From a virus, in UHGV virus genome UHGV-0024034: a stretch of DNA of 30,722 nucleotides; one strand, written 5' to 3'. This document shows, one piece after another, positions 64 to 30,722 of this stretch (its first letter is position 1; the number at the start of each line of letters is the position of its first letter). The notes under the pieces were generated by a model. That model did not search any database, was not told the origin of the DNA, and saw only the letters and a program-made list of their open reading frames with translations. The position numbers were made by a program, and so were the translations under genes.

Positions 64-76
64 AGTTAAGACGCTC
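64..76. repeat. attL core, 13-bp direct repeat AGTTAAGACGCTC
   Basis: Identical 13-mer at 30647..30659. Its reverse complement encodes ...ERLN plus a TAA stop, the same C-terminal residues as the host gene at attR. Confidence 0.75.
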
Positions 77-157
77 CTATTAACACCCCACAGCGAACAA
101 ACACTTACCATATAAAACAACTAGTTAAAGTAATTTTTAATGCAGTGAATTGCAGTG

Positions 158-1207
158 TTATGCAACCTCTGCCGCCACATTGTCGCCAACATACAGCGAT
201 AACGGATTGAGGGTTACAGCTTGTTCAAGGTGGTCAGGAGCAAAGTGCGCATACTTCATTGTTTCTCGAATATTGGCATGTCCGAGAATTTTCTGCAGCA
301 CCAGTATATTCCCTCCGTTCATCATAAAATGCGCACCAAAAGTATGACGCAAAACGTGCGTCTTCTGCCCTTCCGTCAATTCAATATTCGTTAGTTTGAG
401 CATCTTTTTAAACTCCTGATAGCAGGGTTTAAACATTCTGCCTTGACGTACGGACAACTCGTCGTACAGCCATTTAGGAATAGGAACTGTGCGATTCTTC
501 TTACCTTTGGTTTTGGTGAACGTTAGTTTATATGGAGAAAGTTGAGGTCGGGTCAATCTCTCCGCTTCCCCCCATCGAGCGCCGGTTGCAAGGCACACCT
601 TAACAATCATGGTGAGGTCTTCTTTGCCGTATTGCTCGCAGGCTCGAAACAGCTCCGGGAGCTGAGACAAAGTTAGCCAGGACATTTCTTTCTCAGCTTC
701 TTTGAATACTCGGATCCCATCAAGTGGATTGGGTAGGCTCCACTCCCCTAACCGGCGGAGCTCATTAAACACTGCTTCTAGGTATTGTTGTTCGCGATTG
801 ACGGTTATAGGTTTGGCGATCCATTTCGAGGGGTCTTTATGATAACCATTGTCTATTTCACCACGTAATCGACGGTCACGATAATGAGCCCAGTCTTTCG
901 CGGTAAGGCGAGATGCAATCGGGTCGCCAAGTCCATTACATACGATTTGAAGCTTTGCAAATCTCGACTTACTGGCGACTAACGCTTGACCGTGCAAATT
1001 GTGCCAAAGCTGAATAATCTCGCTTAAGCGTCGGCGGTCTTCTTTCTTGCCGAGCCACGGCTTATCTTCACTCTCGCTTTTGGTAAATGCTTCAAATGCC
1101 TCGGCCTCACCTTTGGTATTGAACTGCCGACGTATACGCCGCCCTTCTCGACCATTTGGATAGAGTTCACACAACCATTTTCCACTTTTTTGTTTACTTA
1201 CAGTCAT
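158..1207 (-). CDS. int: Tyrosine integrase, P2 Int-like
   Basis: 349-aa ORF; N-terminal GRxGxRIRRxF and C-terminal HxLRHTFxxHFMMNGG...YAHFAP motifs typical of the P2 integrase family; adjacent to attL. Confidence 0.95.
   Translation of the reverse strand: MTVSKQKSGKWLCELYPNGREGRRIRRQFNTKGEAEAFEAFTKSESEDKPWLGKKEDRRRLSEIIQLWHNLHGQALVASKSRFAKLQIVCNGLGDPIASRLTAKDWAHYRDRRLRGEIDNGYHKDPSKWIAKPITVNREQQYLEAVFNELRRLGEWSLPNPLDGIRVFKEAEKEMSWLTLSQLPELFRACEQYGKEDLTMIVKVCLATGARWGEAERLTRPQLSPYKLTFTKTKGKKNRTVPIPKWLYDELSVRQGRMFKPCYQEFKKMLKLTNIELTEGQKTHVLRHTFGAHFMMNGGNILVLQKILGHANIRETMKYAHFAPDHLEQAVTLNPLSLYVGDNVAAEVA
163..190. repeat. attP arm repeat (candidate integrase arm-type site), copy 1
   Basis: CAACCTCTGCCGCCACATTGTCGCCAAC, about 24/28 identical to 30542..30569 in the same orientation; overlaps the int 3' end. 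Confidence 0.4.
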
Positions 1208-1231
1208 TGCGATACCGAGGCTAAAAGAAAA

Positions 1232-1570
1232 TTAATTACAAAGGGCTGTAGCGGCATCAATCACCGGTGAAATTGAAATTTTAACGCCGTCATACTCAGG
1301 GTCATCCTTCCATACGTCATCTAAGTTAGACCCCTCCAGCTTTCCTGATTTAACAGCATCTACCGCCATGCCATTCAGAGGATATCTATCATCAGTTTTG
1401 ATGTCATACACAAAAGCATAAGCACGGTTAACACATGATACCTTTGCCTTTTCAAAGGTTAGAGGCCACTTGTCACCATATGCAGCGCCGTCTATCTCTT
1501 TAAACTTCTCAGCGGCTATGGCTGAGGAAGAAAGTGCAATGCAGACTATCGCAAATATAAACTTTTTCAT
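1232..1570 (-). CDS. Small secreted protein (signal peptide, two Cys), accessory gene downstream of cI
   Basis: 112 aa; N-terminus MKKFIFAIVCIALSSSAIA is a typical Sec signal peptide; GGAG Shine-Dalgarno 5 nt before the ATG, only 9 bp after the cI stop; locally AT-richer than the structural genes. Confidence 0.6.
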   Translation of the reverse strand: MKKFIFAIVCIALSSSAIAAEKFKEIDGAAYGDKWPLTFEKAKVSCVNRAYAFVYDIKTDDRYPLNGMAVDAVKSGKLEGSNLDDVWKDDPEYDGVKISISPVIDAATALCN

Positions 1571-1579
1571 TACTGCTCC

Positions 1580-2425
1580 TTAAACATGCTTTTCCAAAGT
1601 AAAAATAACCGCACCTGATGGTGTGATATCTGAAATATTACATTCAAACTCAGCAGACTTATTTGATAACCTGACCTTTCCGCCTGGCAACCTGATTACG
1701 TCAAAAACATCGAGTGCGCCATCAATACCAATAAGCCAGCGACCATTTCCTATCTTCGAGTTAGAACTATCAACAAGCCAAGATGTGCTCACACCATCAA
1801 TAAACACTAAATCATCAGTATTTGATGGAACCATAGATATATCAGGAGTCCAGCGTCCGATATCTTTGAGTTCGCCAGCCTCGAGGCGGCACTTTCTAAT
1901 CGTTAAAGCATTTGCCGGTTCACCATCATTACTGTTACGCATCTGGCCTTTTCCGGTTGATAACCATTCTAACGATACGCCAGTATCAAGGGCGCAAGTG
2001 ACAACCACGTCACCGGGGAAAAAATCGCGTCTAACCCAAGTGCTTATAGTGCCGGAAGATATACCTAATAAATCTCCAAGCTCTTTTTGCAGAGTAAAAC
2101 CATACGCATCGAGAATCCGACGCAGAACCGCCCTCCCTCCATTTGCCATGATTTCATCATAGAGTTGCTTACCTTTAAGCTTAGTTTTCACCACTTCAAA
2201 TCTTGCATTTGCAAGCTCACCATTAATTAGCCATCGCAGGTCAGCTCCAGTATCAAGAGCACACTCAACGAAAACGTTGCTAGGGATTACGTTTCTAGCA
2301 AGCCAGCTACTCACGTTGTTTGCATGTATGCCAAGCCTTTCGGCTAGTTCCTTTTGCTGCTTAAAGCCGTATGCAGAAAGGACACGTTCCAATGCGGCAG
2401 ACGCATTAACATCATTTTTAGACAT
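1580..2425 (-). CDS. cI: CI-type immunity repressor (186 CI-like) with tandemly duplicated N-terminal HTH domain
   Basis: Two internal repeats (..VLSAYGFKQQKELAERLGIHANNVSSWLARNVIPSNVFVECALDTGADLRWL.. and ..ILDAYGFTLQKELGDLLGISSGTISTWVRRDFFPGDVVVTCALDTGVSLEWL..) resembling the 186 CI HTH domain, plus a C-terminal domain. Start taken at Met-64 of the ORF-track frame, because the upstream part of the ORF runs through the promoter region. Confidence 0.8.
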   Translation of the reverse strand: MSKNDVNASAALERVLSAYGFKQQKELAERLGIHANNVSSWLARNVIPSNVFVECALDTGADLRWLINGELANARFEVVKTKLKGKQLYDEIMANGGRAVLRRILDAYGFTLQKELGDLLGISSGTISTWVRRDFFPGDVVVTCALDTGVSLEWLSTGKGQMRNSNDGEPANALTIRKCRLEAGELKDIGRWTPDISMVPSNTDDLVFIDGVSTSWLVDSSNSKIGNGRWLIGIDGALDVFDVIRLPGGKVRLSNKSAEFECNISDITPSGAVIFTLEKHV

Positions 2426-2446
2426 ATGACACCAACAAGAATTTTG

Positions 2447-2475
2447 TTTACAACCAAAATTTAGCGATCTATATT
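2447..2475 (+). promoter_or_regulatory. Putative rightward early (lytic) promoter pR: -35 TTTACA (2447..2452), 17-bp spacer, -10 TATATT (2470..2475)
   Basis: Sigma70-like hexamers with canonical spacing in the cI-apl switch region; CI operators and the leftward cI promoter not resolved. Confidence 0.4.
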
Positions 2476-2538
2476 GGTGCTCACCGACCAAGATGCACAC
2501 CACTGCACTACATTTCAAACAACAGGAGATAATGCGAT

Positions 2539-30206: not shown

Positions 30207-30281
30207 AAAAGCAAACCAAAACTTGCAAATGCAATTTTGAAGTTTATTATTCCCTCAGATACGCCAGCAGGGGAAATAATT

Positions 30282-30500
30282 ATGATGCACTGCCCGTTAT
30301 GCCAAAACGCCGCACATGCTCGCACTAGCCGGTACCTTAGCACCGAAACAAAAGAACGTTATCACCAGTGCCAGAACATAAATTGCGGATGTACATTTAT
30401 CACTTTTGAGACGCTATCAAGATTCATTGTGAAACCGGGTACTGTTGATCCTGCTCCGCCACACCCCATCAGAAACCAACAACAGCAACTTTGGCTTTGA
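30282..30500 (+). CDS. ogr: Late gene activator, Ogr/Delta (186 B) family zinc finger
   Basis: 72 aa from MMHCPLCQNAAHARTSRYLSTETKERYHQCQNINCGCTFITFETLSRFIVKPG, near-identical in pattern to P2 Ogr; the ORF-track start at 30237 is an overextension. Confidence 0.9.
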   Translation: MMHCPLCQNAAHARTSRYLSTETKERYHQCQNINCGCTFITFETLSRFIVKPGTVDPAPPHPIRNQQQQLWL

Positions 30501-30522
30501 ACCTGCTTCGGCAGGTTTTTTT
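30499..30522 (+). terminator. Rho-independent terminator after ogr
   Basis: Stem AACCTGC/GCAGGTT with TTCG loop, followed by a run of seven T. Confidence 0.75.
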
Positions 30523-30541
30523 ATATCTGTCGCCATCGCTC

Positions 30542-30569
30542 CAACCTCTGCCGCCAATTTGCCGCCACC
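30542..30569. repeat. attP arm repeat (candidate integrase arm-type site), copy 2
   Basis: CAACCTCTGCCGCCAATTTGCCGCCACC; see copy 1 at 163..190. Confidence 0.4.
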
Positions 30570-30572
30570 ACC

Positions 30573-30610
30573 AATAAAGAAGGGGTTAGCAATTCGCTAA
30601 CCCCTTGTTT
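30573..30610 (-). terminator. Phage-supplied replacement terminator for the host rplS transcript (hairpin is bidirectional)
   Basis: Perfect 9-bp stem GGGGTTAGC/GCTAACCCC with a 5-nt loop (30582..30604), flanked by T-rich tracts on both strands; lies about 40 nt downstream of the host gene stop on the minus strand. Confidence 0.6.
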
Positions 30611-30644
30611 CATAACACGCTTTGGATGTAGCGCGAATACGTTA

Positions 30645-30722
30645 TCAGTTAAGACGCTCTTTGATACGAGCAGCCTTACCAGTACGCTCACGCAGGTAGT
30701 ACAGTTTAGCTTTACGAACAGC
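30645..30722 (-). CDS. rplS: 50S ribosomal protein L19, 3' end (partial; runs off the window)
   Basis: Minus-strand translation ...[25 protein letters not shown] matches the E. coli L19 C-terminus as I recall it; codon usage typical of highly expressed genes. Confidence 0.75.
   Translation of the reverse strand, partial: [25 protein letters not shown]
30647..30659. repeat. attR core, 13-bp direct repeat AGTTAAGACGCTC
   Basis: Identical to 64..76; overlaps the last four codons of the host gene. Confidence 0.75.

What the first reader, a model, noticed from the sequence alone, without database searches (positions are those of the whole stretch)
64..30722. Integration into the 3' end of rplS with reconstitution of the C-terminus and a replacement terminator
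Seen: the 13-bp att core covers the last four codons of the host ORF. The attR copy is followed by a TGA stop and a phage-supplied hairpin terminator (30573..30610). The attL copy is followed by a TAA stop and what looks like the original host terminator (3..32). The host ORF C-terminus matches ribosomal protein L19 from memory. Inference: integration preserves an essential ribosomal protein gene by supplying an identical C-terminus and a new terminator. I do not recall rplS as a P2-family attachment site, so this may be an uncommon target.
Basis: partly seen in the sequence, partly recalled or inferred. Interest (0 to 1): 0.5.

Follow-up and report, generated by a model that had tools for sequence, protein, structure and literature searches.

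The report
PsP3-type prophage inserted at rplS end
A complete P2-family (PsP3/186-type) prophage sits in the last four codons of the essential ribosomal protein L19 gene of E. coli and hands the gene a new stop codon and terminator; this is real, but it is the regular, widely used attachment site of this phage group, so it is ordinary.

Summary
AGTTAAGACGCTC occurs exactly twice (64-76 and 30647-30659). It covers the last four rplS codons (E-R-L-N, minus strand) plus one base of the stop codon. Joining the two host arms gives a sequence 100% identical to the uninterrupted yfiB/rplS junction found in 5341 of 5426 complete E. coli genomes. L19 has the same protein accession in a lysogen and in MG1655.

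At attR the phage supplies TGA-TAA and a hairpin with a U-tract that reads as a terminator only in the rplS sense. At attL the native TAA and terminator now follow int.

The phage arm is a diverged homologue of the enterobacterial rplS 3' flank. Its terminator stem keeps pairing through compensatory changes. 186-type arm repeats (TGYCGCCA) flank both cores.

The claim that this target is uncommon fails:
- Phage PsP3 carries the same attP.
- 85 E. coli genomes have the site split, 68 of them with this attR.
- Integrases at least about 68% identical lie next to this core in about a dozen enterobacterial genera.
- A 2019 paper lists a PsP3-like prophage at yfiN-rplS.

This is textbook 3'-end integration with gene restoration. 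Interest is low.

The parts
64..76 (.). attL core copy (AGTTAAGACGCTC). On the minus strand it reads as orphan codons E-R-L-N plus the first base of the native TAA.
30647..30659 (.). attR core copy. It holds the last four codons of the functional rplS plus the first base of the stop codon.
   Evidence: Identity to empty-site genomes starts exactly at 30647.
30645..30722 (-). 3' end of rplS (L19 residues 91-115) running off the window, ending in the phage-supplied TGA (30645-30647). An in-frame back-up TAA lies at 30642-30644.
30570..30606 (-). Phage-borne intrinsic terminator now serving rplS. The stem-loop is 30580-30606 and the U-tract 30570-30579 (UUCUUUAUU; close relatives have UUUUUUAUU). 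In the unintegrated phage the same hairpin lies downstream of int.
30607..30646 (-). Phage copy of the rplS 3' untranslated spacer, including the ACATCC box conserved in phage arms and host flanks.
5..36 (-). Native rplS terminator hairpin (arms 5-18 and 23-36). In the lysogen it lies downstream of int.
62..64 (-). Native rplS stop codon TAA, left behind at attL.
170..188 (+). P' arm-type integrase sites: TGCCGCCA (170-177) and TGTCGCCA (181-188), 11 bp apart, inside the last codons of int.
   Evidence: The consensus tgccGCCActt for 186-type integrases is given in PMC3448106.
30528..30567 (+). P arm-type integrase sites: TGTCGCCA (30528), TGCCGCCA (30549) and TGCCGCCA (30560).
158..1207 (-). 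int, a tyrosine integrase (Int_N plus Phage_integrase domains).
1580..2425 (-). 186/PsP3-type CI immunity repressor. The start follows the RefSeq annotation of an identical prophage; the mechanical ORF runs to 2614.
2539..2910 (+). Homologue of PsP3 gp30, at the position of the Apl/Cox excision-directionality factor. This is a candidate only.
   Evidence: PMC3448106 notes that the PsP3 protein is a singleton.
8295..8313 (+). cos, identical to the 19-nt cos of PsP3 and 186.
30283..30500 (+). ogr/pag late-gene activator (Ogr/Delta zinc finger), with its own plus-strand terminator at 30499-30518.

Best explanation
The window is essentially one complete PsP3/186-type P2-family prophage (genus Eganvirus, Peduoviridae; about 30.6 kb) integrated by its tyrosine integrase into the E. 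coli chromosome. The insertion lies between yfiB and rplS, inside the 3' end of rplS.

How integration works. Int binds 186-type arm repeats (TGYCGCCA, in pairs 11 bp apart) on both sides of attP. It exchanges strands within a 13-bp identity with attB. That identity is rplS codons 112-115 plus the first base of the stop codon.

Why nothing is lost. In both partner sites the layout is 'gene 3' end -> core -> spacer -> intrinsic terminator', in the same orientation. The gene is int in attP and rplS in attB. Recombination therefore simply swaps the 3' flanks:
- rplS keeps an unchanged L19 reading frame.
- rplS acquires the phage's TGA-TAA stops and the phage terminator.
- int, and transcription leaving the prophage's left end, acquires the native TAA and the native rplS terminator. 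That terminator also still shields the convergent yfiB.

Origin of the phage flank. It is not an unrelated sequence. It is a diverged homologue of the enterobacterial rplS 3' flank, the usual signature of an element that targets the 3' end of a gene.

Shown:
- the core repeat, the empty site, the attP in free phage genomes, and the unchanged protein;
- the orientation, conservation and compensatory changes of the hairpin;
- the arm repeats;
- the spread of this site across hosts.

Inferred:
- that the hairpin actually terminates rplS transcription;
- that it terminates int transcription before integration;
- that the prophage is still able to excise.
For: Core and empty site:
- The core occurs twice only, against a chance expectation of 0.03.
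- The reconstructed attB is 100% identical and uninterrupted in 5341 of 5426 genomes, and is annotated rplS.
- Lysogen context is dgcN-yfiB | int ... ogr | rplS-trmD-rimM-rpsP. The empty context in MG1655 has yfiB and rplS convergent.
- The L19 accession is the same in both.

Site specificity:
- The attR junction is in 68 genomes and the attL junction in 48. There is always one place per genome, and every listed hit lies at rplS.
- The free-phage attP of PsP3 and an IMG/VR attP (L025) have the same layout.
- Integrase relatives of about 68-96% identity in 17 of the 20 closest species genomes have the core starting 82-84 nt after the int match. They cover about a dozen genera, including Escherichia, Enterobacter, Yokenella, Citrobacter, Kluyvera, Pectobacterium, Franconibacter, Brenneria, Pantoea and Symbiopectobacterium. 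Relatives at or below 62% identity never have the core there.

Recombination machinery:
- Tyrosine integrase domains.
- Five of the seven TGYCGCCA copies in the window lie within about 130 bp of the cores, all on one strand, with 11-bp pairs. They match the published 186-type arm consensus (PMC3448106).

Terminator:
- It is scored only on the minus strand, with z = -4.6.
- Across 15 phage arms and host flanks aligned without gaps (83% column identity), the 11-pair stem is paired in 99.4% of cells.
- Three pairs show double changes, and several are G-U pairs that would be C.A mismatches on the other strand.

Phage identity:
- 96% identity to phage vB_EcoM-613R3 and 87% to PsP3.
- The cos site is identical to that of PsP3 and 186.
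Against: - No experimental data exist here on termination, excision or L19 levels.
- In this particular copy the U-tract is interrupted by a C (UUCUUUAUU). Closest relatives have UUUUUUAUU. Termination may therefore be leakier than in relatives.
- The pair-count test includes host flanks that are native terminators. Among phage arms alone the variation is small.
- The excision factor is only a positional candidate.
- A serine invertase gene in the tail-fibre region is truncated, so the prophage is not entirely free of decay.
Confidence: 0.9

Rival explanations
1. The phage hairpin exists for the phage's own needs: as the terminator of int in the unintegrated genome, or as an insulator between int and ogr. 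On this view its service to rplS after integration is incidental rather than selected.
For: - In attP (PsP3 record, L025) the hairpin lies directly downstream of int on the same strand.
- ogr has its own separate terminator.
Against: - This is not exclusive with the main explanation, because both genes read the hairpin in the same sense.
- The whole arm from the stop codon to the U-tract is homologous to host rplS 3' flanks. That includes the ACATCC box at a fixed distance from the stop. It points to an origin in, and continued match to, the rplS context.
Confidence: 0.35
2. The hairpin is an architectural element of the recombination complex (a protein-binding palindrome) and not a transcription terminator.
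For: It lies between the core and the arm-type sites, where bending proteins bind in other attP sites (general knowledge of lambda and P2 attP; not tested here).
Against: - A U-tract follows on the rplS-sense strand only.
- Compensatory changes and strand-specific G-U pairs indicate selection on an RNA helix.
- Native host terminators occupy the homologous position.
Confidence: 0.05
3. The 13-bp direct repeat is a target-site duplication made by transposition, or a chance repeat, and not a site-specific recombination core.
For: Only that short direct repeats flank the element.
Against: - The same sequence pre-exists in free phage attP and as a single copy in the empty site.
- The same junctions recur in dozens of genomes and in many genera.
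- A tyrosine integrase and arm sites are present.
Confidence: 0.01
4. The element is a fixed, defective remnant that can no longer excise, so the arrangement is a fossil rather than a working integration module.
For: - The invertase is truncated.
- The U-tract carries a substitution.
- There is no induction evidence.
Against: - The full gene complement from int to ogr is present, and cos is exact.
- The window is 96% identical, over 89% of its first 24 kb, to vB_EcoM-613R3, a record deposited as a phage genome.
- Both cores and all arm sites are intact.
- The site is empty in most strains, so the element is not fixed.
Confidence: 0.12

Closest known systems
Salmonella phage PsP3 and other Eganvirus phages (SEN1, SW9, SI22, vB_EcoM-613R3, Midge)
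   Same: - Gene order, cos, CI/CII/Tum/Pag regulators and integrase are shared.
- attP has the same arm repeats, terminator hairpin, spacer and rplS core.
   Different: - PsP3 carries TAA and a 17-bp identity with attB. This phage carries TGA-TAA and a 13-bp identity.
- This phage has extra cargo between cos and the portal gene, and a tail-fibre inversion cassette.
phiSPU2, a PsP3-like prophage of Salmonella Pullorum listed at 'yfiN-rplS' (PMC6449608)
   Same: Same phage type and same chromosomal site.
   Different: - The host differs.
- The paper gives only the locus name. It does not describe the codon overlap, the stop-codon change or the terminator exchange.
Coliphage 186 (att in tRNA-Ile) and relatives in tRNA-Met, tRNA-Lys and ssrA
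   Same: - Same integrase class, with tgccGCCActt arm repeats.
- The core overlaps the 3' end of a gene, and the phage copy restores that gene (PMC3448106).
   Different: - The target here is a protein-coding ribosomal gene, not a tRNA or tmRNA gene.
- The exact core is short (13-17 bp).
Phage 21 and the e14 element at icd (from my own knowledge; not tested here)
   Same: Integration into the 3' end of a protein-coding housekeeping gene, with a phage-borne substitute 3' end.
   Different: - At icd the phage replaces about 50 codons and changes some residues. Here only four identical codons are involved, and the real replacement is the stop codon plus terminator.
- The phage family is unrelated.
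Lambda sib retroregulation of int (from my own knowledge; not tested here)
   Same: The sequence downstream of int lies across attP, so integration changes the 3' end of the int transcript.
   Different: - No RNase III site has been shown here.
- The two exchanged flanks are homologous terminators, so a regulatory difference may be small or absent.

Membership tests
Tyrosine-integrase (lambda Int-type) prophage integration module | A tyrosine recombinase gene next to one junction. | tested here: met
   The product of 158-1207(-) matches Int_N (1.3e-30) and Phage_integrase (3.3e-19), and phrog_1 integrase.
Tyrosine-integrase (lambda Int-type) prophage integration module | An identical core at both junctions, present once in the unoccupied chromosomal site. 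| tested here: met
   (5341 of 5426 genomes have the uninterrupted site, 100% identical).
Tyrosine-integrase (lambda Int-type) prophage integration module | The same core within attP of the unintegrated phage genome. | tested here: met
   PsP3 virion genome 21560-21800; IMG/VR L025, L049, L052, L069, L074 and L077.
Tyrosine-integrase (lambda Int-type) prophage integration module | Arm-type integrase repeats on both sides of the core. | tested here: met
   TGYCGCCA at 170, 181, 30528, 30549 and 30560. It matches the 186-type consensus in PMC3448106. Binding itself was not tested.
Tyrosine-integrase (lambda Int-type) prophage integration module | A recombination directionality factor (Apl/Cox). 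| tested here: inconclusive
   There is only a positional homologue of PsP3 gp30 (2539-2910, phrog_3554 of unknown function, no Pfam match).
Tyrosine-integrase (lambda Int-type) prophage integration module | Demonstrated integration and excision. | not testable with these tools
   Requires induction and PCR, or an in vitro recombination assay.
Eganvirus (186/PsP3-type Peduoviridae) | P2-type late-gene order, a 186-type early region (CI, CII, Tum/DinI, Ogr/Pag), and high nucleotide identity to members. | tested here: met
   - 96% identity to vB_EcoM-613R3, and 87-89% to PsP3, SEN1 and SW9.
- CI, CII, Ogr and DinI domains.
- cos is identical.
3'-end gene-targeting att sites that restore the target gene | The core overlaps the 3' end of a gene, and the product is unchanged after insertion. 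| tested here: met
   (WP_000065253.1 in both the lysogen and MG1655).
3'-end gene-targeting att sites that restore the target gene | The element carries a homologue of the target's 3' part or flank. | tested here: met
   A gap-free 77-column alignment of phage arms and host flanks has 83% column identity. The window arm matches host-type flanks at 45-53 of 77 positions.
Intrinsic (Rho-independent) terminator | A G+C-rich stem-loop followed by a U-tract on the transcribed strand. | tested here: met
   12 pairs and tail CTTTATTGGT, on the minus strand only. Stability z = -4.6. 99.4% of cells are paired, with 3 compensatory pairs.
Intrinsic (Rho-independent) terminator | Termination activity. 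| not testable with these tools
   Needs Term-seq, 3' RACE or a reporter assay.
Lambda sib-type retroregulation (considered) | An RNase III-sensitive structure downstream of int that is present only in the attP configuration. | not tested
   Only the geometry fits (int -> core -> hairpin in attP). Rfam found nothing in the window.

The most novel reading that the evidence does not exclude
The cassette 'rplS core + spacer with ACATCC box + terminator' may be a mobile specificity module, captured from a host rplS 3' flank and shared among several P2-like lineages. One group has only about 80% integrase identity and a different P' arm. Another has P2-type arm repeats (GTGGGCA-N4-GTGGACA) in place of the 186-type repeats.

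The exchange of homologous but non-identical terminators and stop codons (TAA to TGA-TAA; a weakened U-tract in this copy) could also have measurable effects. It might alter expression of the rpsP-rimM-trmD-rplS operon, or of int, in a lambda sib-like way.
Probability: 0.15. Interest if true: 0.4.

Novelty: already known. Interest (0 to 1): 0.15.

Why it matters
It matters mainly as a clean, well-bounded annotation.
- It fixes the prophage ends to the base.
- It explains why an essential, highly expressed ribosomal operon tolerates the insertion.
- It assigns the attB of the classical phage PsP3, which the 2011 P2 survey left blank, to the rplS 3' end.

Practically, the 139-bp yfiB/rplS junction is a simple marker for typing PsP3-like lysogeny in Enterobacterales. 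No new principle is involved.

Tried and rejected
- I first guessed from hit coordinates that the PsP3 record began at the att site. The annotation shows it begins at cos, and that attP is internal between pag and int.
- I tested a second small hairpin just after the stop codon (alignment columns 13-18 with 27-32). It pairs in the phage arms but in only 66.7% of all cells, and host flanks use another register. I rejected it as a conserved structure.
- Rfam finds no known RNA family anywhere in the window.
- I tried to identify the donor species of the phage arm. The best gap-free identity is only 53 of 77, to Pectobacterium- or Brenneria-type flanks. At least one of those 'host' flanks (L086) itself carries arm-like repeats and may be phage-derived, so this is unresolved.
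- PADLOC and Pfam give nothing for the 334-aa cargo protein.
- Literature searches for 'P2-like'+'rplS' and for 'yfiN'+'prophage'+'P2-like' found nothing. 'PSP3'+'rplS' found only PMC6449608.
- The arm variant with P2-type repeats (L070) has no close copy in complete E. coli genomes, so I could not link it to an integrase.
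Full report
OBSERVATION

The two ends of the window were read directly. AGTTAAGACGCTC lies at 64-76 and 30647-30659. A search allowing one mismatch finds only these two copies, against 0.03 expected by chance.

The host gene is on the minus strand at the right end. Positions 30645-30722 translate to [25 protein letters not shown]. The core is the codons GAG CGT CTT AAC (E-R-L-N) plus the first base of the stop codon.
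- At the right copy the stop is TGA (30645-30647), followed immediately in frame by TAA (30642-30644).
- At the left copy the four orphan codons are followed by TAA (62-64).

IS IT rplS, AND IS THERE AN EMPTY SITE?

Joining window 1-76 to 30660-30722 gives a 139-nt sequence. It is found uninterrupted in 5341 of 5426 complete E. coli genomes, the top hits at 100% identity, under the annotation 'rplS: 50S ribosomal protein L19'. The other 85 genomes have it split into two places.

- In MG1655, yfiB and rplS converge with a 75-bp spacer.
- In lysogens the order is dgcN-yfiB | int ... ogr | rplS-trmD-rimM-rpsP.
- RefSeq gives L19 the same protein accession, WP_000065253.1, in a lysogen and in MG1655. 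The protein is therefore unchanged.

In genomes with an empty site, identity to the attR junction query starts exactly at 30647. The attR junction is present in 68 genomes and the attL junction in 48. There is always one place per genome, and every listed hit lies at rplS.

WHAT THE ELEMENT IS

The window is 96% identical, over 89% of its first 24 kb, to Escherichia phage vB_EcoM-613R3. It is 87-89% identical to the Salmonella phages PsP3, SEN1, SW9 and SI22 (genus Eganvirus, Peduoviridae). It encodes:
- a tyrosine integrase (158-1207, minus strand);
- a 186-type CI repressor;
- CII;
- a DinI-like TumB;
- an Ogr/Pag zinc-finger activator (30283-30500).

The 19-nt cos of PsP3 and 186 is present exactly at 8295-8313.

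PsP3's own virion genome has the same arrangement between pag and int. In order it holds arm repeats, a hairpin, a spacer...CTCTTAGTTAAGACGCTCCT..., and then int. An IMG/VR contig (L025) shows an intact attP of the TGA type. This excludes a transposition-type duplication.

ARM SITES

TGYCGCCA occurs seven times in the window. Five copies lie within about 130 bp of the cores (170, 181, 30528, 30549, 30560), all on the plus strand. Two pairs are spaced 11 bp apart. This matches the consensus tgccGCCActt reported for arm sites of 186-type integrases (PMC3448106).

THE REPLACEMENT TERMINATOR

A consensus scan scores the hairpin at 30580-30606 as terminator-like on the minus strand only. It has 12 pairs and the tail CTTTATTGGT. 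ogr has its own plus-strand terminator at 30499-30518. The native terminator is found at the left end. Both 3' regions fold far better than shuffled controls, with z = -4.6 and -5.1.

I collected phage arms from PsP3, E. coli lysogens and IMG/VR contigs, together with host flanks from attL junctions in other genera.
- From the stop codon to the U-tract they align without a single gap over 77 columns, at 83% mean column identity.
- The window's arm matches host-type flanks at 45-53 of 77 positions.
- The phage arm is therefore a diverged homologue of the enterobacterial rplS 3' flank, including an invariant ACATC (ACATCC in 14 of the 15 sequences) at a fixed distance from the stop.

On this alignment the 11-pair terminator stem is paired in 99.4% of cells. 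Three pairs change on both sides. Several pairs are G-U, which would be C.A mismatches on the opposite strand. This supports selection on an RNA helix read in the rplS sense.

There is a caveat. Six of the 15 rows are host-side flanks taken from attL junctions, which in most cases should be the native rplS terminator. Variation among the phage arms alone is modest. In this window the U-tract carries a T-to-C change (UUCUUUAUU) that the closest relatives lack.

MECHANISM

In attP the order on the minus strand is int -> core -> spacer -> hairpin. In attB it is rplS -> core -> spacer -> hairpin. Recombination within the 13 bp therefore swaps two homologous 3' flanks.
- rplS receives the phage's TGA-TAA and the phage terminator. 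This should stop the strongly transcribed rpsP operon from reading antisense into ogr and the tail genes.
- int receives the native TAA and terminator. This should stop prophage transcripts from reading antisense into yfiB.

The geometry, the homology and the unchanged protein are shown. The termination activities, and any regulatory consequence analogous to lambda sib, are inferred.

HOW COMMON AND HOW WELL KNOWN

A scan of one genome per species with the integrase gave these results.
- For 17 of the 20 closest relatives (about 68-96% identity), the core, with at most two mismatches, starts 82-84 nt after the end of the int match.
- These come from about a dozen genera, including Escherichia, Enterobacter, Yokenella, Citrobacter, Kluyvera, Pectobacterium, Franconibacter, Brenneria, Pantoea and Symbiopectobacterium.
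- No relative at or below 62% identity has the core there.

IMG/VR adds further phage groups carrying the same core and terminator.
- One group has an integrase about 80% identical and a different P' arm (attP in L049, L052, L069, L074 and L077).
- Another set of right ends (L059, L070) has arm repeats of the P2 type, GTGGGCA-N4-GTGGACA. These could not be tied to an integrase. No close copy exists in E. coli.

In the literature:
- PMC6449608 (2019) lists a PsP3-like prophage, phiSPU2, at 'yfiN-rplS' in Salmonella Pullorum.
- The 2011 survey of P2-like integrases and att sites leaves PsP3's site blank and never mentions rplS (PMC3448106).
- rplS 3'-end integration is also listed for unrelated streptococcal prophages (PMC7487436).

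The site is therefore neither rare nor unrecorded. However, I found no description of its fine anatomy: the four-codon overlap, the stop-codon change and the exchange of homologous terminators.

VERDICT

The 'uncommon target' idea is wrong. This is the standard attachment site of PsP3-type phages and an instance of the textbook strategy of integrating into the 3' end of a gene while carrying a replacement for it. That strategy is seen with 186 at tRNA-Ile and, from my own knowledge, with phage 21 and e14 at icd. Interest is low.

Noticed in passing
window 8314-9614 (ORF 8533-9537, minus strand): About 1.2 kb lies between cos (8295-8313) and the portal gene and is absent from PsP3. It encodes a 334-aa protein of unknown function (phrog_11743; no Pfam or PADLOC match). 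From my own knowledge, this position is a cargo and anti-phage-defence hotspot of P2-like phages, so it may be an undescribed defence gene.
   Followed up: partly
window 21528-23742: This looks like a tail-fibre inversion cassette.
- A 21-nt inverted repeat (21528-21548 and 23419-23439, 90% complementary) brackets a fibre C-terminus plus chaperone on the plus strand.
- It also brackets an alternative fibre C-terminus (22922-23428) plus chaperone (22320-22922) on the minus strand.
- The adjacent serine invertase ORF (23500-23742) is only 80 aa, covering about half of the Resolvase N-terminal domain.
The switch may therefore be frozen or depend on an invertase supplied in trans.
   Followed up: partly
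window 30642-30647 (minus strand): The phage-supplied stop for rplS is a tandem TGA-TAA. PsP3 and the L049 group supply TAA, like the host. The TGA type is also seen in the IMG/VR attP L025 and in E. coli lysogens (L002, L051).
   Followed up: partly
window 30570-30579: The U-tract of the replacement terminator has a T-to-C change in this copy (CCCCTTCTTTATT). The nearest relatives have CCCCTTTTTTATT. The terminator may be weaker in this strain.
   Followed up: no
L059 (IMG/VR 3300013000_000084), about 3951 and 10132 in the reverse orientation; L070 10241-10338: These are right ends of other P2-like prophages at rplS.
- Their arm repeats are of the P2 type (GTGGGCA-N4-GTGGACA), next to the same terminator and core.
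- L059 also has a second, decayed att-like junction (AGTTAAGATGCT) and a partial second D/U gene set.
This suggests successive or tandem integrations at this site.
   Followed up: partly
L086 (Pectobacterium sp. B2J-2), downstream of the attL core: The supposed host flank after the terminator carries arm-like repeats (TTGGCGGTAAAGCG...). This 'attL' may therefore abut another phage arm, as a tandem lysogen or a remnant.
   Followed up: no
NZ_CP035846.1 (E. coli TW10598), attL about 3,937,700 and attR about 3,893,900: In this lysogen the two junctions are about 44 kb apart rather than 30.6 kb. The vB_EcoM-613R3 record is also about 45 kb. Some relatives at this site seem to carry about 14 kb of extra DNA or a second element.
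   Followed up: no
window 1232-1570 (minus strand): A DUF2511 protein gene (112 aa) lies between int and cI and is conserved in PsP3 (gp28). It is a lysogeny-region cargo gene of unknown role.
   Followed up: no
window 41-46 and 30624-30629, and the homologous positions of all host flanks: The motif ACATCC (GGATGT on the plus strand) lies about 20 nt after the rplS stop codon. ACATC is invariant and the sixth base matches in 14 of the 15 phage arms and host flanks aligned. Its function is unknown, and it is not part of a conserved helix.
   Followed up: partly
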